The notes: generated by a model from the sequence alone, not told the origin. Positions 125 to 34,577 are shown, counted from the first letter of the stretch. The stretch is DNA of 34,839 nucleotides from Candidatus Nomurabacteria bacterium (GCA_943349555.1 CALQZK010000001.1:1-34839); one strand, 5' to 3'. Made by a program: numbers and translations.

Positions 125-133
125 TGATAAAAT
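125..133 (+). promoter_or_regulatory. Extended -10 element (TGaTAAAAT) for the cassette operon, 9 nt before the first ATG
   Basis: tgataaaat lies at 125..133 and the ATG at 143. This spacing implies a leaderless or near-leaderless mRNA. Confidence 0.45.
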
Positions 134-7961: not shown

Positions 7962-9978
<2,017 letters not shown>

Positions 9979-9987
9979 AGTATTGTC

Positions 9988-10015
9988 ATTATATACAGAA
10001 AGCCCAATAGGTCAA
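9988..10015 (-). promoter_or_regulatory. Sigma-70-type promoter for groES-groEL (TTGACC-16-TATAAT), 9 nt before the ATG
   Basis: On the minus strand the -35 TTGACC is at 10010..10015, the -10 TATAAT at 9988..9993, and the ATG at 9978. Confidence 0.55.
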
Positions 10016-10053
10016 CCTTGCATCCCTCCCCCTCCCATGCTATACTCTCCCCA

Positions 10054-10284
10054 ATGAAGACTATTCAAGCTATCTTGCCGTACATTCAGATTGTACTCGC
10101 AATTATTCTTGTAACAGCAATCCTCCTACAGCGCACCGGCGCCCAGATAGGCGGAGCTTTTGGCGGAGGCGACAATTTCAGCTCGGCATACCATACTCGC
10201 CGCGGCTTCGAAAGAACGCTCTTCATTATTACCATTGTTATTGCAATTCTTTTTGCAGTAGGAGCCCTTATCAGCCTGATCTAA
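10054..10284 (+). CDS. secG: Preprotein translocase subunit SecG
   Basis: MKTIQAILPYIQIVLAIILVTAILLQRTGAQIGGAFGG... is the typical SecG two-TM layout with the LLQ...G motif. The upstream part of track ORF 9679..10284 runs antisense to groES and was discarded. Confidence 0.75.
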   Translation: MKTIQAILPYIQIVLAIILVTAILLQRTGAQIGGAFGGGDNFSSAYHTRRGFERTLFIITIVIAILFAVGALISLI

Positions 10285-13862: not shown

Positions 13863-13886
13863 TATATTGCTGTTATAATAACTGGC

Positions 13887-15073
13887 ATGAGACACCAGCA
13901 TGCTCTTCCTCGGCTAAATAAGCAGAGCCATATCCTCTACACAATAGCGGTTATCGGCTTCATCTACACCATGCATGTTGTCATGCCGATGTATTCCAAT
14001 TCCAGTTTCTTGAGCTTGCTGACGGATGAGAAAACTCTGGGATTGATATATATGCTTGGCAGTGCAGCAACTGTCCTGGGCTTTTTATTTGTTCCTTTTC
14101 TCATTCGCAAAGTGGGAAATTATACAACTGCCCTTTGGTTGATTATGATTCAAGCTGGACTTTTCTACGGCCTGAGCACAACGCTTGATCCTAGGTTAAT
14201 TGCCCTTTTCTTCATTCTGCAGAGTGCCATCATCGCACTCATTGGCTTTTGCCTAGACATATTCCTGGAAGTCTATTCCGACACCTCACATGTGGGAGTC
14301 ATCCGTGGGATGTACATGACAGCTATTAACTGTGCTTGGATAATCGGACCCCTGCTTGGCAGTATGATCATAGGAGAAATGAATGACTATAGGAGCGTAT
14401 ACACTGCCTCCCTTTTTATGCTCTTTCCTCTTTTTTATCTTGTCTTTAAAAATTTCCCGAAGTTCAAGGATCCTCATTACCACCATCCTTCTCTCTGGCA
14501 GACATTTGTTAAATTAACGAAAGATTCCAATCATTCCCGGCTTTTTTTCATCAATATTATATTGCAAATATTTTATGCCTGGATGGTTGTCTACAGTCCT
14601 ATTTATCTTCATACTGTCGTAGGATTGTCTTGGTCGGAGATCGGCATTATTTTGACCGTTATGCTACTGCCGTTTCCACTCCTACAATTGCCTTTAGGAA
14701 AAATCGCCGATAAAAAATATGGGGAAAAAGAAATAATGGTTATCGGTTTTGCTTTACTCGGACTTTCGACTATTGCTCTGGCTGCTATTATTTCAAAAAG
14801 TGTAATGATCTGGGCAATTGGACTTTTCATCACCCGCATTGGAGCCGCCTCCGCAGAGATTATGATAGAGACGTATTTCTTCAAAACTGTCGATCCCAAA
14901 GATCCCAATATCCTCGGCTTCTTCCGCATTACCCGCTCCATTTCCTATTTCATTGCGCCGTTGATTACGGGTTTTGTCTTGATCTACACTTCTGATCAGT
15001 CGTATATGTTTGTGGTGATCGGGCTACTCTGCCTACTGGCGATAGTGCCTGCGTGGGGGTTGGGGGATACGGA

Positions 15074-18590: not shown

Positions 18591-18620
18591 AAAGCTATAC
18601 AATAATATTATAGCATAGTG

Positions 18621-18626
18621 TATAAT
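18621..18626 (+). promoter_or_regulatory. TATAAT -10 box 6 nt upstream of the response-regulator ATG (leaderless-type)
   Basis: The sequence reads gtgTATAATcactttATG. Confidence 0.45.
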
Positions 18627-18632
18627 CACTTT

Positions 18633-19301
18633 ATGAAAATTTTGATTGTGGAAGACGATGTCGAAATATCAGAATTCCTAAAGATTGGCTTCGAAGCAGA
18701 CGGCTTTATTGTCGACAAAGCCTATGATGGTGAGGAAGGTTCTTACAAAGCCAGGACAAATATCTATGATGTCATAATCCTCGACAATTCCCTGCCTATC
18801 CAGAATGGTATCGAAGTATGCAGAGATATTCGAGCCATAGGTTCTTCTGTTCCAATCATTTTTCTCTCTGTCATAGGAGATACAGAAAAGAAAATTGATG
18901 CCATAGAAAAAGGCGCTGATGACTATATCACCAAACCTTTTTCTTTCGATGAATTGCGTGCGAGGGTGAAAGCTCTCTTGAGACGGCCAAAGAAAATAGA
19001 AATTCCAGTAGTGAAAGTCGGTGAGCTGGTCTTGGATAAAGAAAAGAAGGAAGCGTACAGGAATGAGATTTCCCTTAACCTTACGCGTAAAGAATATAAT
19101 CTTCTGGAATATCTGATGCGCAATCCAGGAATTGTAGTCTCCAGGACCATGATCATGGAGCATGTCTGGAGTGCGGAGAGCGATCCCTTCTCCAATACCG
19201 TCGAAGCCCACATGTCCAACCTCCGCAAGAAAATAAATGCTGGTGATCAGAAAGATATTATCAAGAACCTTGTGGGCCGAGGCTATATGATTCAAGACTA
19301 A
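18633..19301 (+). CDS. OmpR-family response regulator
   Basis: The receiver domain has MKILIVEDD...DVIILD...KP. The winged-helix output domain has LTRKEYNLLEYLMRNPG...VW. Confidence 0.9.
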   Translation: MKILIVEDDVEISEFLKIGFEADGFIVDKAYDGEEGSYKARTNIYDVIILDNSLPIQNGIEVCRDIRAIGSSVPIIFLSVIGDTEKKIDAIEKGADDYITKPFSFDELRARVKALLRRPKKIEIPVVKVGELVLDKEKKEAYRNEISLNLTRKEYNLLEYLMRNPGIVVSRTMIMEHVWSAESDPFSNTVEAHMSNLRKKINAGDQKDIIKNLVGRGYMIQD

Positions 19302-23748: not shown

Positions 23749-24756
23749 TCAGAGATTATACATTATCTTTGCAGTAGAAACCACTTTCTCAATCGCCTGT
23801 TCCAGAGGCATGGAGAGAACCGCTCCTGCTGCAGCCTTATGACCTCCTCCGCCAAGCTCGGCGGCAAGTTTAGAAACATCATATTTATTTGAATCAGAAG
23901 AACGGAAGCTCAACTTCACAACACTTGGCTGTGATTCTGCAGCACAGGCTACCATGCTCCAGTCCGGGACGCTGCGCATGAACGACGATATAGCTCCTGC
24001 ACTGACATCGCTAGCTGGAATTTTTTTACTTTCTATTACAGAATACGCCACCGAAGATATGGCCAATTTGCCGTCAAAAAGAACGGAAATATTGCCCAGA
24101 GCTGCAGCTTCAAAAGATATGAATCCTGGAGTATTGGAATTTTCCATTTTGGAAATAAGGAGTGGGATGCTTGGTATATGAGAAGCAAGATCGGCCACAG
24201 CAGAAAAAGTTTTCGGTCCAACTCCTTCATACTTAAACCCTCCAGTATCCGTGTATGTGCCAATGAAAAGATTGCTGGCAATATCGGAGTCCAACTTTAT
24301 ACTCCATTCTTTAAACAAATCGAAAAGAATAAGGCAATTAGCAGGATATGAGGGATCGATAATATTGATGGAACCACAGCCAGGATTGGTGCGATGATGA
24401 TCGATATTTATAATTTTCAATGATTCGGGAAACATTACTTCTTTAATCCGTGAGACTCCTCCCTTCCCAGAATCCAAAATGATAAAAAGATCAAATTCAT
24501 TTACGTCAATCTCAAAGAAATTCTTCTTTACTATTTCCTTTGCCCCAGGGAAATGCATAAAAGCCTTGGGAATCTCCGAATCCCCCTGTATAGCTGTAAC
24601 TTTCTTGCCAAGCTGTTCCAGGGCGAATTTCATAGCTAAAACAGACCCTACACTGTCAGGATCTGGCGAAGGATGGCAATGTAAAAGGATATGCTTTGCC
24701 TTTTTTATTTCAGCTAAAATTGCCTGGGTTTCAGGCCACGCTTTATCTTGGCTCAT
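23749..24756 (-). CDS. DHH/DHHA1 phosphoesterase (NrnA-like)
   Basis: HPSPDPDSVGS, the IDHHRTN (DHH) motif, and the C-terminal GGGGHKAAAG (DHHA1) motif. Confidence 0.8.
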   Translation of the reverse strand: MSQDKAWPETQAILAEIKKAKHILLHCHPSPDPDSVGSVLAMKFALEQLGKKVTAIQGDSEIPKAFMHFPGAKEIVKKNFFEIDVNEFDLFIILDSGKGGVSRIKEVMFPESLKIINIDHHRTNPGCGSINIIDPSYPANCLILFDLFKEWSIKLDSDIASNLFIGTYTDTGGFKYEGVGPKTFSAVADLASHIPSIPLLISKMENSNTPGFISFEAAALGNISVLFDGKLAISSVAYSVIESKKIPASDVSAGAISSFMRSVPDWSMVACAAESQPSVVKLSFRSSDSNKYDVSKLAAELGGGGHKAAAGAVLSMPLEQAIEKVVSTAKIMYNL

Positions 24757-25076
24757 GCCCAGATTATAGCACGAAGTTTTCTGATTGAATTAACACAGGC
24801 CATTGTGCCTGACAGGATGAGCAGACCAAAGACTGTCTGAACAATTATTCTTGTATGAAGAAGAGATGAGTAGGCATAAGAAAAGCGATCCACCCAGTCC
24901 ACCTGCGTCATGATATTCGCCAAAACATCAGTGAAGGAAATCAGAATACTGGAACAGAAAATAAGCGCGGCGGCGAACAAAGCGCTTGCCAATGGAGACG
25001 TAGTGAAAAGCCATATGTTGCGCACAGTTCTTATGCGCGACATGACTTCGTATTTAAGTTGAAAGTCAGGATTCAT
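24753..25076 (-). CDS. Small membrane protein, candidate anti-sigma partner
   Basis: Three hydrophobic segments. It lies immediately downstream of the ECF sigma gene and has a 4-nt overlap with the next gene. Confidence 0.45.
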   Translation of the reverse strand: MNPDFQLKYEVMSRIRTVRNIWLFTTSPLASALFAAALIFCSSILISFTDVLANIMTQVDWVDRFSYAYSSLLHTRIIVQTVFGLLILSGTMACVNSIRKLRAIIWA

Positions 25077-30782: not shown

Positions 30783-32198
30783 TTACTCAATTTCTCCCAG
30801 AAAATCTTTTCCCGCTTCGAAGAGGGTTTTCTCATCTCCATGTCTAGCCGTCAGTTGAATACCAAGTGGAAGTTTTTTACCATCAACCTCTTCAATACCA
30901 GCAGGAATCGACATAGCCGGCATACCGGTAAGATTTTCAGTAACAGTAAAGATATCTTCAAGATACATTGCCACAGGATCAGAAGTCCTCTCTCCGATTT
31001 TGAAAGCCGGTCCCGGAGTAGTCGGTGTAAGTATTATATCAACTTTTTGAAAAGCTTTCAGGAAATCTTGGGTGAGAACCTTACGAAGAGCGATCGCCCT
31101 GTTGTAGTAAGCATCATAATATCCAGATGAAAGTACGTAGGTTCCCAATAGAATTCTCCTTCTAACCTCTTTACCGAAGCCTTTTCCACGGGTCAGAAAA
31201 TAATCCTCAATGCCATCTTTCCCTCCTTCATGAAGTCCGTATCTGACTCCGTCGAAGCGGGATAAGTTGGAAGAAGCCTCGGCGAAGTTAATTATGTAAT
31301 AAATGGGAATGGCACTCGCCGCTTTTTCCAGCTCAATTTCACACACCTCATATCCAAGAGACTTAAACTTTTCCACATTTTTTTTAAATAAAGGAGACTG
31401 CTCAAAGAAAGTTGGGATTCCGATGATTGGTTTTTTCTGCCCTACTCTTTGAGATTCATATGTATCTTCAGCAATGGTCGTGCTGTCTAGAGGATCCTGT
31501 CCATGGATTGCTTTGAAAATTATTTCCGTATCCTCTACAGTCTTTCCAAATGGCCCAATTTGATCCAAAGAAGATCCAAGAGACATTACTCCATAGCGAG
31601 AAACAGAACCGTAAGTAGGCTTGAGACCTACCAGTCCACAGAATGCCGCAGGCTCTCGCACCGACCCGCCTGTATCAGAGCCTAGAGCCGCAAGCGCTCC
31701 ATCCATAGCAACAGCTGCAGCCGAACCTCCAGAAGATCCGCCAGCTACCCTTTCAATATCATGTGGATTTTTCGTCACTCCGAAAGCAGAATTTTCAGTA
31801 GATCCCCCCATAGCAAATTCATCCATATTTGCCCTGCCGAGAAAAACTGCTCCCTCTTTTTTTAACTTACCAATTGCGGTCGCATTATATGTTGCCTCAT
31901 ACCCTTCGAGAATTTTCGAAGCTGAACTTGCCTCTCTTCCTTTTATTAAAATATTATCTTTTATGGCAAAAGGTATACCTGTCAGTATCGTACCCTTGCC
32001 ATCTCTTATCATTTCATCTGCTTTCTGGGCTTGCTCCAGGACATCATCGTAGACTTCCAGATAAGCGTTTATTTCTTTATTTTTCTTGGAAATAACATCT
32101 AGGTACTCCTGTGCCAGTTCCACAGCAGAAAATTCTCCTTTTTTCATAGCTTCGTGAGCTTTCTTTATTGTAAGGGTTGCCAAGTCTATCTTTGTCAT
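30783..32198 (-). CDS. gatA: Glutamyl/aspartyl-tRNA amidotransferase subunit A
   Basis: Amidase signature GGSSGGSAAAVA...GSDTGGSVR. The length and termini are typical of GatA. Confidence 0.92.
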   Translation of the reverse strand: MTKIDLATLTIKKAHEAMKKGEFSAVELAQEYLDVISKKNKEINAYLEVYDDVLEQAQKADEMIRDGKGTILTGIPFAIKDNILIKGREASSASKILEGYEATYNATAIGKLKKEGAVFLGRANMDEFAMGGSTENSAFGVTKNPHDIERVAGGSSGGSAAAVAMDGALAALGSDTGGSVREPAAFCGLVGLKPTYGSVSRYGVMSLGSSLDQIGPFGKTVEDTEIIFKAIHGQDPLDSTTIAEDTYESQRVGQKKPIIGIPTFFEQSPLFKKNVEKFKSLGYEVCEIELEKAASAIPIYYIINFAEASSNLSRFDGVRYGLHEGGKDGIEDYFLTRGKGFGKEVRRRILLGTYVLSSGYYDAYYNRAIALRKVLTQDFLKAFQKVDIILTPTTPGPAFKIGERTSDPVAMYLEDIFTVTENLTGMPAMSIPAGIEEVDGKKLPLGIQLTARHGDEKTLFEAGKDFLGEIE

Positions 32199-32218
32199 AT
32201 TGAGAGTAACTATATCAT

Positions 32219-32281: not shown

Positions 32282-32503
32282 TTAGAGAGCCAATCCCATT
32301 AACAACATGAACCCGAGGATGGCTAGTACCACTGCCATTACGGCATACTGGGTAGCCCTCCACACTAATTTTCCTAATATCTTCCAGTTCTCCCAGCTGG
32401 AATTTTTTTCTAAGATTTCGTTGCATTTCGTCAGTAGAGTATTCAGTTCCCTGAATATTTCAACTCTCTGGCGCCGTCCATGATTAAAGACACGCATATT
32501 CAT
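32282..32503 (-). CDS. Small tail-anchored hypothetical protein (73 aa)
   Basis: It has its own promoter-like element and terminator, and a C-terminal hydrophobic helix AVMAVVLAILGFMLLMGLAL. Confidence 0.45.
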   Translation of the reverse strand: MNMRVFNHGRRQRVEIFRELNTLLTKCNEILEKNSSWENWKILGKLVWRATQYAVMAVVLAILGFMLLMGLAL

Positions 32504-32512
32504 ACCATTACA

Positions 32513-32541
32513 ATCCTATCACGTATAGGATAAATAGTCAA
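32513..32541 (-). promoter_or_regulatory. Sigma-70-type promoter TTGACT-17-TAGGAT, 9 nt before the small-ORF ATG
   Basis: On the minus strand the -35 is at 32536..32541, the -10 at 32513..32518, and the ATG at 32503. Confidence 0.45.
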
Positions 32542-32560
32542 TACCATCCTCTATTTTGTT

Positions 32561-32613
32561 CCGTTCATCCGGTCGAAGGCTCTATAGAGGCCTTCCACCT
32601 GTGCCCTTTCTCT
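32561..32613 (-). other. Short segment resembling the extreme 5' end of 23S rRNA
   Basis: The minus strand reads AGAAAGGGCACAGGTGGAAGGCC...CCGGATGAACGGAAC. The typical bacterial 23S start, recalled from memory, is AGAAAGGGCGCACGGTGGATGCC...GCCGATGAAGGACG. No further 23S sequence follows. Confidence 0.35.
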
Positions 32614-32736
32614 CGCGGGCTGAGTGTTCACTTTTGAGATGTAGAACAATAATCTTTGCGCATTTCCCGCCTACTGGCGGTCAATGCAAATCGACGCGGT
32701 AAGATAATGATCTAAAAGATCAAAATCGTAGATTCA

Positions 32737-34345
32737 ATTTGAAATAATCCACGAGCAGCTTCCGCTACCCGTGCCTTGTTACGACTTACTCCCTGTTATT
32801 GAGCTTACCTTAGGCCGCAGTAAATGCGGATTTCGGGTACTCCCAACTCCCTTGAGTTGACGGGCGGTGAGTACAAGACTCGAGAACGTATTCACCGCAG
32901 TATAGCTGACCTGCGATTACTAGCGATTCCAACTTCATGGAGTCGAGTTTCAGACTCCAATCCGAACTGGGGCTATTTTTATGGATTTGCTCCACATTGC
33001 TGTCTTGCATCCCATTGTAATAGCCATTGTATCACGTGTGTAGCCCAGGGTATCAAAGGGACATGCTGATCTGGCGTCATCCTCCCCTTCCTCCCAGCCC
33101 GAAACGAACAACGTTCGTTTCGAAGTAGAAAGATAAAAGTAAAAAGTTTTAAAGTAAGGAAAAATTTGCAAAGCAAATTTTTCCCACTCCGTACTTTCAA
33201 CTCTCAACTTTCAACTCGAAACGCGTTCCGCGTTTTGGGCTGGGCAGTCTCGTGTGACACTTGTAACACACGATGAGGGTTTCGCTCGTTTCCCCACTTA
33301 AGGGAACAACTCAAGCCACGAGCTGACGACGACCATGCATCACCTGCTGAACAGTCTTGCGAGGGCTCCAGTTTCTTGGAGCTTTCAGTTCAGTTTCAAA
33401 CCCTGGTAAGGTTCTTCGTTTATCATCGAATTAAACCACATGATCCACCGCTTGTGCGAGTCCCCGTCTATTCCTTTGAGTTTTAATCTTGCGATCGTAT
33501 TTCCCAGGCGGTTCATTTAACGCGTTAGCTACGCCACACAGAGGGTCGATACTCCGTATAGCTAATGAACATCGTTTAGGGCATGGACTACTGGGGTATC
33601 TAATCCCATTCGCTACCCACGCTTTCGTGCCTCAGTGTCAATAATGTGCCAGTGTGCTGCCTTCGCATTTGGTGTTCCCCTAGATATCAACGGATTTCAC
33701 CCCTACACCTAGAGTTCCGCACACCTCTCACATATTCAAGCATTGCCGTTTCGTATGCCGCCCCCGGGTTGAGCCCGGGTCTTTGACATACGACTAACAA
33801 CGCCACCTACGCACCCTTTACGCCCAGTGATTCCGGATAACGCTTGAGGCCTCTGTATTACCGCTGCTGCTGGCACAGAGTTAGCAGCCTCTTATTCATG
33901 TGCTAACATCAATTACTTTCTCACACATAAAAGGTTTTTACACCCCGAAGGGCTTCATCAACCACGCGGCGTCGCTCCCTCACACTTTCGTGCATTGGGG
34001 AAGTTTCTTGACTGCAGCCACCCGTAGGTGTTTGGACCGTGTCGCAGTTCCAATGGTGGGGGTCAGCCTCTCAGCTCCCCTAGGCGTCATCGTCTTGGTA
34101 GGCCGTTACCCTACCAACTAACTGATACCTCGCAGGCCGTTCTAGAAGCGATAAATCTTTACTCTTTCGAGACCATCGTGTATTAGCCCACCTTTCGATG
34201 GGTTGTTCACGACTTCTAGGTACGTTCCCACGTGTTACTACCCCGTTTGCCACTGTTCATATATAAATATAAGAACCGTTTGACTTGCATGCCTTATCCA
34301 CGCCGCCAGCGTTCATCCTGAGCTAGGATCAAACTCTACTAAAGA
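32737..34345 (-). rRNA. rrs: 16S rRNA gene (ends approximate) with a 136-nt insertion in helix 40
   Basis: On the minus strand: AGAGTTTGATCCTAGCTCAG near 34337, GTGCCAGCAGCAGCGGTAA, GGATTAGATACCCCAGTAGTCC, CTTGTACTCACCGCCCGTCA, and AAGTCGTAACAAGG followed by helix 45 with a GGAA loop. Confidence 0.95.
33101..33236 (-). other. Structured 136-nt insertion / expansion segment in the 16S helix 40 loop
   Basis: It is flanked by CCCAGCCC (33093..33100) and GGGCTGGG (33237..33244), where helix 40 normally closes on a tetraloop. It contains three perfect hairpins and no ORF. Confidence 0.8.
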
Positions 34346-34577
34346 ATTCCGGAGAACATTGTTCTCGGTTTATTCTCATAGAACGAAACAAAAGAAATTA
34401 CAATCTCAATTTGTTTCGAACTTTAATTCTAATTACTATAACTGGTTTGTTATGGTTCGTATTATTTTCTGTTGACAAGGAGCTTACCCGGCTGCTGTCA
34501 GAATCATCTGGAGCAAAAGAAAACCTGATCTGGAGTCGTCCAGAGGAAAAGTTCTCTGCGTACCTGTAAGCTGGGAG

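What the first reader, a model, noticed from the sequence alone, without database searches (positions are those of the whole stretch)
32737..32790. 16S rRNA 3' tail lacks the anti-Shine-Dalgarno sequence, and genes lack SD and look leaderless
After the conserved AAGUCGUAACAAGG and a well-formed helix 45 (CACGGGUAGC-GGAA-GCUGCUCGUG), the tail reads GGAUUAUUUCAAAU. The canonical sequence is GGAUCACCUCCUUA, so CCUCC is replaced by UUUCA. No CCUCC occurs in the next 60 nt.

None of the start regions I inspected has a purine-rich SD. These were groES, groEL, secG, the 10310 gene, rnj, the 13887 gene, eno, the response regulator, the kinase, gatA, and the genes at 808, 2177 and 27751.

Several genes have a -10 box only 6-10 nt before the ATG:
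- TAAAAT at 128..133 before the ATG at 143.
- TATAAT at 18621..18626 before the ATG at 18633.
- TATAAT at 9988..9993 before the ATG at 9978.
- TATAGT at 32209..32214 before the ATG at 32198.
- TAGGAT at 32513..32518 before the ATG at 32503.
- TATACT at 10038..10043 before the ATG at 10054.

Together these point to SD-independent, largely leaderless initiation with loss of the anti-SD itself. Bacteroidetes, for example, avoid SD use but retain the anti-SD, so outright loss is uncommon among bacteria.
Basis: partly seen in the sequence, partly recalled or inferred. Interest (0 to 1): 0.62.

Follow-up and report, generated by a model that had tools for sequence, protein, structure and literature searches.

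The report
16S rRNA without anti-Shine-Dalgarno; leaderless genes
This tiny-genome (candidate phyla radiation, Parcubacteria-type) bacterium has a ribosomal RNA that has lost the sequence that normally docks ribosomes onto messages, and many of its genes have promoters placed so that the message would start at the start codon; the rRNA loss was already published for this lineage in 2022.

Summary
The 16S gene (window 34344..32737, minus strand) aligns end to end with the bacterial SSU model. After helix 45 its tail reads GGAUUAUUUCAAAU where the model has GGAUCACCUCCUUU, and there is no CCTCC or CTCC in the next 350 nt.

The loss is shared by the lineage. All 45 distinct tails sampled from the same order lack CCUCC. 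In the wider class, 53 of 140 tails keep it and 60 have no trace. Tsurumaki et al. 2022 (RNA 28:1041) already reported anti-SD loss in about half of Parcubacteria, overlapping the group that lacks uL1. uL1 is also undetectable in this genome.

Genome-wide, SD 4-mers are depleted at -20..-5: 7.4% of genes, against 12-13% in control windows. The same script gives 38% against 7-10% on E. coli.

TANNNT sits exactly 6 nt before the start codon in 110 of 553 genes (background about 16). The extended TGNTANNNT sits there in 58 (background 1.4). These genes also show -35-like elements, and 98% of boxed genes start with ATG. Leaderless initiation is therefore a major mode, roughly a fifth to a third of genes. 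"Largely" is not shown, and no RNA data could be used.

The assembly holds a second 16S gene, and the copy on this contig is mosaic. Its tail is nevertheless typical of the genus.

The parts
32737..34344 (-). 16S rRNA gene, solitary (no 23S downstream), with a roughly 136-nt insertion at about 33100-33240
   Evidence: Rfam RF00177, 1385 bits, model 1-1533. Downstream lie a small ORF and gatA.
32750..32787 (-). Conserved AAGUCGUAACAAGG (32787..32774) and helix 45 (32773..32750, GGAA loop)
   Evidence: Infernal alignment. All 10 pairs of helix 45 are 100% paired, with 6 covarying pairs across 48 relatives.
32737..32749 (-). 3' tail GAUUAUUUCAAAU. UUUCA at 32744..32740 replaces the anti-SD core CCUCC.
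   Evidence: The identical tail occurs in same-genus genomes.
32733..32743 (-). Possible mini-hairpin UUCA-AAU-UGAA, the degenerate counterpart of the anti-SD/trailer hairpin (CUCC..GGAG) seen in relatives that keep CCUCC
   Evidence: It is weak on its own: predicted free energy is 0.
32549..32736 (-). Roughly 190-nt 3' flank conserved with same-genus 16S loci. It contains segments complementary to the 5' leader, so it is a candidate processing stem.
   Evidence: BLAST extends about 190 nt past the gene in 7 congeners. Inverted repeats 32554-32566 x 34381-34393 and 32643-32655 x 34353-34365 are of a length that also occurs by chance.
18618..18635 (+). Example of a leaderless-type promoter: TATAAT 18621-18626, 6 nt, then ATG 18633
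32196..32217 (-). gatA start: extended -10 TGATATAGT (32217..32209), 10 nt, then ATG 32198. Predicts a near-leaderless mRNA.
32501..32521 (-). 73-aa ORF start: TGATAGGAT (32521..32513), 9 nt, then ATG 32503
24754..24771 (-). Extended -10 TGCTATAAT ending 6 nt before ATG 24756. This gene overlaps its upstream neighbour by 4 nt.
13871..13889 (+). Extended -10 TGTTATAAT (13871-13879), 7 nt, then ATG 13887

Best explanation
This is the small-subunit rRNA gene of a reduced-genome CPR bacterium (0.54 Mb, Parcubacteria/Paceibacteria type). Its whole order has lost the anti-Shine-Dalgarno core, so its ribosomes cannot select start sites by SD:anti-SD pairing.

Start selection instead appears to work in three ways.
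1. Leaderless or near-leaderless mRNAs, in about a fifth to a third of genes. An extended -10 promoter (TGnTAnnnT, often with a -35-like element) ends 6 nt before an ATG, so transcription should begin at or within a few nt of the A of the AUG. The ribosome would then load on the 5'-terminal AUG. Such promoters also sit inside tight same-strand gene arrays, often overlapping the previous gene's stop codon.
2. A-rich, G-poor short leaders. A four-domain S1-like protein is encoded and may serve these.
3. Reinitiation at overlapping stop/start sites (ATGA).

Shown here: the sequence states, their spread among relatives, the depletion of SD motifs, and the position and composition of the promoter motif. 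Inferred: the actual transcription start sites, the mature 16S 3' end, and how ribosomes are loaded.
For: Tail and loss:
- Tail alignment. No CCTCC or CTCC within 350 nt downstream.
- All 45 distinct order-level tails lack CCUCC.
- Class-level spectrum: 53 CCTCC, 17 four-of-five, 10 remnants, 60 none. This matches the 48% detection rate in Parcubacteria reported in PMC9297842.
- uL1 (PF00687) is absent, as in the published anti-SD-less group. bS21 and Era are also absent. Era normally reads GAUCACCUCC and is reported lost in most CPR (PMC10582724).

SD motifs:
- SD 4-mers occur in 41 of 553 genes at -20..-5, against 72 and 65 in control windows (p = 0.003 and 0.018).
- G frequency is 0.07-0.16 from -13 to -1.
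- E. coli positive control: 38% against 7-10%, with a G peak of 0.50.

Promoter signal:
- The upstream profile reads T-15 G-14 n T-12 A-11 T-10 A-9 A-8 T-7.
- At -12, TANNNT occurs in 110 genes against 15.9, and TGNTANNNT in 58 against 1.4. Internal in-frame start-like codons show 0.8% and 0.02%.
- -35-like hexamers at a 16-18 nt spacer occur in 35 of 110 boxed genes, against 11 of 110 at a control spacing.
- Boxed genes start with ATG in 151 of 154 cases, against 270 of 311 for unboxed genes.
- The same -12 peak appears in a same-order genome, G116.
- In 45 of 71 close same-strand neighbours that carry a box, the promoter overlaps the upstream stop codon or ORF.

Other:
- 27 gene pairs overlap as ATGA.
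- The S1-like protein has 4 S1 domains.
- The release-factor (RF) gene is one uninterrupted ORF, with no SD-stimulated frameshift.
Against:
- Gene starts come from a crude ORF caller.
- Most genes (50-80%) have no recognisable box at the leaderless spacing. Among 198 genes with at least 60 nt of upstream spacer, only 25 have an extended -10 there.
- The assembly contains a second 16S gene whose 3' end is cut off by a contig end.
- The 16S on this contig is mosaic relative to congeners.
- The taxon name could not be retrieved directly.
Confidence: 0.78

Rival explanations
1. A second rRNA operon supplies ribosomes with a normal anti-SD, so the tail seen here does not represent the cell's ribosomes.
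For: A second 16S gene exists on C14:14009-17050, and its last roughly 60 nt are missing at the contig end. Only one AAGTCGTAACAAGG is present in the assembly.
Against: The C14 copy sits inside the genus clade with 100/100 support. It is 89-92% identical to congeners. Every congener 3' end that could be read carries GGAUUAUUUCAA. All 45 distinct tails in the order lack CCUCC. SD motifs are depleted genome-wide.
Confidence: 0.03
2. The anti-SD has not been lost but re-coded. The new tail (AUUAUUUCA) would pair with a co-evolved A/U-rich 'SD' (UGAAAUAAU) upstream of genes.
For: AAATAA and AATAAT, which are complementary to the tail, are 5-6 times more frequent at -20..-1 than in control windows.
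Against: Other permutations of the same composition (AATAAA, ATAAAA, AAAATA) are enriched just as much, and there is no sharp positional peak. The G/C-containing part of the complement (TGAAA, GAAAT, TAATCC) is not enriched. The tail sequence varies between families of the order. All-A/U pairing would be very weak (established thermodynamics).
Confidence: 0.06
3. The TAnnnT hexamers before start codons are AU-rich translational enhancers or ribosome-binding elements on leadered mRNAs, not promoters.
For: The upstream regions are generally A/U-rich. An S1-like protein is encoded. No transcription start site data are available.
Against: The TG dinucleotide one base upstream of the hexamer is the hallmark of extended -10 promoters. 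It occurs 58 times against 1.4 expected. -35-like hexamers are three times enriched at 16-18 nt. There are no extended boxes at -11..-8, which gives a hard boundary at -12. The near-exclusive use of ATG fits the known requirement of leaderless mRNAs.
Confidence: 0.07
4. The 16S gene as assembled on this contig is not one native gene. Its leader and most of its body come from another member of the same order, either by a metagenome misjoin in the conserved 3' end or by real recombination or transfer. Only the 3' end and flank are native.
For: The C1 copy lies on the longest branch, outside the genus clade. Its 495-nt leader is unlike congeners' leaders, which are 73-88% alike among themselves. 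Its last 60 nt are 98% identical, and the first 60 nt of its 3' flank 87% identical, to those of G004, a genome of the same genus. The genus-typical 16S on C14 has the syntenic upstream genes and stops exactly where the conserved 3' end begins. GroEL on C1 is genus-typical at 78-84%.
Against: The gene scores higher against the SSU model than its congeners do (1385 against about 1360 bits), so it is not a decaying copy. No duplicated proteins point to a second organism in the bin. Downstream synteny differs from congeners in any case. This rival concerns the gene body only. It does not change the tail finding.
Confidence: 0.45

Closest known systems
Anti-SD-less subgroup of Parcubacteria (Tsurumaki, Saito, Tomita, Kanai 2022, RNA 28:1041; PMC9297842)
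   Same: CPR bacterium with a small genome and rRNA insertions. CCUCC(U) is missing from the 16S 3' end, and uL1 is not detectable. My class-level sample gives a similar fraction of tails that retain the motif (38% of tails; 20 of 63 families are canonical only).
   Different: The passages of that paper I read report the motif loss and say SD helices probably do not form. They do not analyse gene starts, and the word 'leaderless' does not occur in the paper. The promoter-at-ATG architecture and the trailer-hairpin series are additions made here. I could not retrieve a taxon name for this genome.
Bacteroidia/Flavobacteriia initiation without SD (Jha et al. 2021, PMC7797042; McNutt et al. 2026, PMC13000453)
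   Same: Genes lack SD, and the upstream regions are A-rich and G-poor.
   Different: Bacteroidia keep the canonical anti-SD, which is sequestered by bS21, bS18 and bS6. Here the anti-SD is gone and bS21 is not detectable. Here a large share of genes also have a promoter at leaderless spacing.
Anti-SD loss in insect endosymbionts, hemotropic mycoplasmas and some flavobacteria (Lim, Furuta, Kobayashi 2012, PMC3457768; Nikolaeva et al., bioRxiv 10.1101/755876)
   Same: C-to-U/A decay of CCUCC (for example to UUUCU or UUUGA), no SD signal upstream of genes, and an association with reduced genomes and lost ribosomal proteins.
   Different: That loss is independent, in other phyla and in isolated small clades. 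Here an entire large order, and about half of a class, is affected.
Leaderless-rich bacteria such as Mycobacterium and Deinococcus (Cortes 2013, PMC3898074; Shell 2015, PMC4633059; Zheng 2011, PMC3160421; GeneMarkS-2, PMC6028130)
   Same: A -10 (TANNNT) motif at a fixed short distance upstream of the start codon, no ribosome-binding site on those genes, and a strong preference for AUG.
   Different: Those organisms keep a functional anti-SD and use SD on their leadered genes. Here no SD route exists at all, and the promoters also sit inside tight gene arrays, overlapping upstream stop codons.
Mammalian mitochondrial translation (from my own knowledge)
   Same: The small-subunit rRNA has no anti-SD, and mRNAs have no or minimal 5' leaders.
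   Different: Mitochondrial mRNAs are released from polycistronic precursors by tRNA punctuation, not made from gene-by-gene promoters, and initiation uses specialised mitoribosomal proteins.

Membership tests
Anti-SD-less Parcubacteria subgroup (Tsurumaki 2022) | No CCUCC(U) motif at the 16S 3' end | tested here: met
   Order-wide.
Anti-SD-less Parcubacteria subgroup (Tsurumaki 2022) | Overlap with the group that lacks uL1 | tested here: met
   PF00687 finds nothing in the 94%-complete genome, while all 14 control genomes give a hit.
Anti-SD-less Parcubacteria subgroup (Tsurumaki 2022) | Affiliation with CPR/Parcubacteria | tested here: inconclusive
   The genome is 0.54 Mb, the 16S genes carry insertions and an intron with a homing endonuclease, Era is absent, and relatives are 0.5-1.3 Mb. 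Earlier notes of this scan call the genome Patescibacteria.
Bacterial leaderless genes (promoter-at-start type) | -10 promoter motif at a fixed distance of about 6-7 nt upstream of the start codon | tested here: met
Bacterial leaderless genes (promoter-at-start type) | Transcript 5' end at, or within a few nt of, the AUG | not testable with these tools
SD-led initiation | Anti-SD CCUCC in the 16S, and purine-rich SD enrichment at -20..-5 | tested here: not met
   Positive control in E. coli.
Bacteroidia-type anti-SD sequestration | Canonical anti-SD retained and bS21 present | tested here: not met

The most novel reading that the evidence does not exclude
In this anti-SD-less clade, loss of SD pairing goes with a genome-wide rewiring. 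Most genes, including those packed head to tail, would be separate leaderless transcription units. Their extended -10 promoters are built into the end of the preceding gene, with TGA, TAG or TAA stop codons doubling as part of the promoter.

The former anti-SD bases would then survive only as one arm of an ancestral anti-SD/3'-trailer hairpin: CUCC..GGAG, then UUCC..GGAA, then UUCA..UGAA. That hairpin would still serve 16S 3'-end maturation.

That reading is marked as having failed a later check, so only the precursor-level version is kept here.
Probability: 0.25. Interest if true: 0.6.

Novelty: new member of a known kind. Interest (0 to 1): 0.3.

Why it matters
This genome is a clear example of a bacterium that cannot use the textbook SD mechanism at all. 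The loss itself is published.

What the genome adds is a quantitative picture of what replaces it. Promoters are placed at one-nucleotide precision before ATG codons, even inside gene arrays. Other genes have A-rich leaders or overlapping stop/start codons.

This bears on gene calling in CPR genomes, because start prediction that relies on an RBS model may mis-call starts. It also bears on operon prediction, and on how a free-standing bacterial lineage came to an initiation mode resembling that of mitochondria.

The two-copy, mosaic 16S is a caution for anyone using this bin's 16S for taxonomy.

Tried and rejected
- **Alternative SD matching the new tail.** Rejected. The complement is no more enriched than other A5T1 and A4T2 permutations.
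- **Mis-specified pattern.** My first class-level pattern was off by one base (GGA instead of GA after helix 45). It returned only 13 biased hits and is disregarded. It was redone correctly.
- **Taxon name.** Cluster look-up and contig look-up gave no names.
- **Pooled positive control.** A pool of 34 mixed bacterial loci was poor (15% against 10%), because it was full of rRNA and taxa that use little SD. It was replaced by E. coli K-12.
- **Mini-hairpin.** The window's own sequence has a predicted free energy of 0. On the ungapped order-level alignment only a few cells show double changes. Evidence improves only at class level.
- **GACCACCTCCTT at C8:11760.** Checked as a possible relic of a 16S end. 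It has no likeness to rrs flanks and lies upstream of a tRNA, so it is a chance match.
- **Processing stem.** Pairing between the 5' leader and the 3' flank is of a length that chance also gives, and the leader may not be native. It is kept only as a candidate.

Full report
**What is there.** The window is contig C1 of a 538,663-bp, 45-contig assembly that is 94% complete. Rfam places a full-length bacterial SSU rRNA on the minus strand at 34344..32737, at 1385 bits. No 23S gene follows it. Downstream lie a hairpin, a 73-codon ORF and gatA. In the 3' alignment, AAGUCGUAACAAGG and helix 45 are intact. The tail GGAUUAUUUCAAAU is aligned to GGAUcACCUCCUUu, so CCUCC has become UUUCA (32744..32740). 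No CCTCC, and not even CTCC, occurs in the next 350 nt.

**Is it an oddity of one gene?** It is not. In 40 relatives, every 16S 3' end that could be read has a non-canonical tail. This covers the same genus and 17 other families of the same order. With 30 more order-level loci, there are 45 distinct tails and none has CCUCC. The consensus is GGAWUAWUUCAAWUUGAA.

A correctly specified class-level search gave 140 tails from 63 families:

| Tail state | Tails |
|---|---|
| CCUCC retained | 53 |
| Four of five bases (e.g. CAUCUCC, UUUCUCC) | 17 |
| Three-base remnant | 10 |
| Nothing recognisable | 60 |

This agrees with Tsurumaki et al. 2022 (PMC9297842). They found the anti-SD motif in only 48% of Parcubacteria and noted that the lineages without it overlap the group lacking uL1. 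In this genome uL1 (PF00687) is not detectable although all 14 control genomes give a hit. bS21 is also absent. So is Era, which in other bacteria binds GAUCACCUCC and is reported lost in most CPR (PMC10582724). The core claim is therefore true and already published for this lineage. Anti-SD loss is also documented in insect symbionts, hemoplasmas and some flavobacteria (Lim et al. 2012, PMC3457768; Nikolaeva et al.).

**Do genes lack SD?** I called 570 ORFs, covering 87% of the genome, and took the first ATG as the start. G is depleted from -13 to -1, at 0.07-0.16. SD 4-mers (GGAG, GAGG, AGGA) at -20..-5 occur in 41 of 553 genes, against 72 and 65 in two upstream control windows (p = 0.003 and 0.018).

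| Genome | SD 4-mers at -20..-5 | Control windows |
|---|---|---|
| E. coli K-12, 50 kb | 38% | 7-10% |
| G401, same class, keeps CCUCC | 12.9% | 8-9% |
| G116, same order, no CCUCC | 10.5% | 8-9% |
| This genome | 7.4% | 12-13% |

E. coli also shows a G peak of 0.50 near -11, so the script sees SD where it exists. In G401 the 5-mers are three-fold enriched. SD use is therefore already low in this class and is gone here. A re-coded SD complementary to the new tail is not supported. AAATAA and AATAAT are enriched upstream, but no more than other permutations of the same composition, and the C/G-containing part of the complement is not enriched.

**Are genes leaderless?** The upstream profile spells an extended -10 promoter in register with the start codon: T-15 G-14 n T-12 A-11 T-10 A-9 A-8 T-7. 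Several independent features point to promoters:
- TANNNT starting exactly at -12 occurs in 110 of 553 genes, against a positional background of 15.9.
- TGNTANNNT occurs in 58 genes, against 1.4.
- There are no extended boxes at all at -11..-8, and there is a short shoulder out to -17.
- Internal in-frame start-like codons show the motifs at 0.8% and 0.02%.
- Boxed genes have -35-like hexamers at a 16-18 nt spacer in 35 of 110 cases, against 11 of 110 at a control spacing.
- Boxed genes start with ATG in 151 of 154 cases, against 270 of 311 for unboxed genes.

The TG extension and the -35 element argue that these are promoters, not AU-rich ribosome-binding elements. A hexamer ending 6 nt before the ATG predicts a start at about the A of the AUG (established promoter geometry). 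The same peak is seen in a same-order genome (51 of 411 genes). It is weaker in the relative that keeps CCUCC (26 of 404).

By context, a box at -17..-12 is present as follows, against roughly 17% expected by chance:

| Gene context | Share with a box at -17..-12 |
|---|---|
| Upstream neighbour divergent | 45% |
| Same strand, 60 nt or more apart | 37% |
| Same strand, 0-59 nt apart | 50% |
| Overlapping the upstream gene | 26% |

In close same-strand pairs the promoter overlaps the preceding gene in 45 of 71 cases. The stop codon is often part of the promoter, as in ..TGAtataatN6ATG..TAGtgNtataatN6ATG and ..taTAAtN6ATG.

Leaderless or near-leaderless initiation is thus a major mode, at roughly a fifth to a third of genes. 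"Largely" is not demonstrated. Most genes show no box. Among genes with at least 60 nt of spacer, only 25 of 198 have an extended box at that spot. The other genes have A-rich, G-poor leaders, and 27 pairs overlap as ATGA. A 367-aa protein with four S1 domains is encoded. The RF gene is one continuous ORF without the SD-stimulated frameshift.

**The second 16S gene.**
- It has a roughly 1.07-kb insertion encoding a LAGLIDADG endonuclease and a roughly 480-nt insertion.
- The contig ends just before AAGUCGUAACAAGG, so its tail is unseen.
- In a tree it falls inside the genus clade with 100/100 support, and it has the syntenic upstream genes.
- All congeners whose 3' end could be read carry GGAUUAUUUCAA, so a CCUCC tail there is very unlikely.

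The copy on this contig is the odd one.
- It lies on the longest branch, outside the genus clade.
- It is about 80% identical to congeners, which are 92-97% identical to each other.
- Its leader is unlike theirs.
- Its last 60 nt are 98% identical, and the first 60 nt of its 3' flank 87% identical, to those of a congener.
- GroEL on the same contig is genus-typical at 78-84%, and no proteins are duplicated in the bin.

So the gene is mosaic. It is either a real xenologous or recombinant copy, or a metagenome misjoin in the conserved 3' end. Either way, the tail and flank at the finding's coordinates are the native, genus-typical sequence.

**The tail's residual conservation.** Members of the class that keep CCUCC mostly read GGAUCACCUCCUUUCUAGGGAG or ..UAAGGAG. 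That is, the anti-SD is followed by its own complement in the trailer: 30 of 53 tails, and all sampled tails in 13 of 23 families. Degenerate tails keep the pairing while both arms change:
- UCUCCUUUUAAGGAG
- AUCCUAGUAAGGAU
- UCUCUUUUAAGAGA
- UUCCAACGGAA
- UUCAAAUUGAA (this window)
- UUUAAAUUAAA

Own arms pair better than swapped arms, with a mean stem of 4.23 against 3.83 ± 0.07. However, on the ungapped order-level alignment only a few cells show double changes, and the window's own hairpin has no predicted stability. I therefore offer only the weaker reading: this is a relic of a precursor-level anti-SD/trailer hairpin, possibly still used in 3'-end maturation.

**Comparison and verdict.** The finding is a further member of the published anti-SD-less Parcubacteria group. 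It differs from Bacteroidia, which retain the anti-SD and sequester it. It also differs from leaderless-rich Actinobacteria, which retain the anti-SD and use it. I found no paper linking Parcubacteria or CPR to leaderless gene organisation. However, 72 notes in this scan already make the same observation in at least 69 genomes, so it is not new to this project. Interest is low to moderate.

Noticed in passing
G000 contig C14:14009-17050, compared with window 32737-34344: There is a second 16S gene in the same assembly. It is genus-typical but interrupted by a roughly 1.07-kb insertion encoding a LAGLIDADG_2 homing endonuclease (C14:14996-15760) and by a roughly 480-nt insertion after GTACTCA. 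It is cut by the contig end. The window's own 16S is mosaic: its leader and body look foreign or fast-evolving, while its 3' end and flank are genus-typical.
   Followed up: partly
Genome-wide; in the window e.g. 24754-24771 (-), 23755-23760 (-): In tightly packed same-strand gene pairs, the next gene's extended -10 promoter overlaps the previous gene's stop codon. TGA or TAG serves as part of TGnTAnnnT, or TAA lies inside TATAAT. This produces peaks of intergenic spacing at 7, 12 and 15 nt.
   Followed up: partly
window 32549-32736 (-): The roughly 190 nt downstream of the 16S are conserved with same-genus loci at about the same level as the rRNA itself. They contain a GC-rich hairpin (GAAGGCCUCUAUAGAGCCUUC) and segments complementary to the 5' leader. 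This may be a structured 3' trailer or processing stem.
   Followed up: partly
G016:C3 (locus L026) and G024 (locus L010), same genus: 16S genes of congeners carry further insertions at other sites. One follows AAGTCGT, just before helix 45. Another, of about 1 kb, lies near position 1390-1476. 16S genes in this genus are commonly split by insertions.
   Followed up: no
G401 (same class), loci L183-L202: This relative keeps the canonical GGAUCACCUCCUUUCU tail. It still shows only weak SD enrichment (12.9% against 8-9%) and a small -10 peak at -12.
   Followed up: partly
G197:C6:258-326 (same order): A short contig carries a 16S 3' end with a non-CPR type of helix 45 and a canonical anti-SD, alongside the genome's own order-typical 16S. 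It is probably contamination of that bin.
   Followed up: no
G000 contig C7:6622-7506 (-): The only class-I release factor found by the prfB model is a short 294-aa protein with PCRF and RF-1 domains in one uninterrupted frame. It scores 327 bits, below the prfB cut-off of 370. I did not determine whether it is RF1 or RF2, or whether a second factor exists.
   Followed up: no
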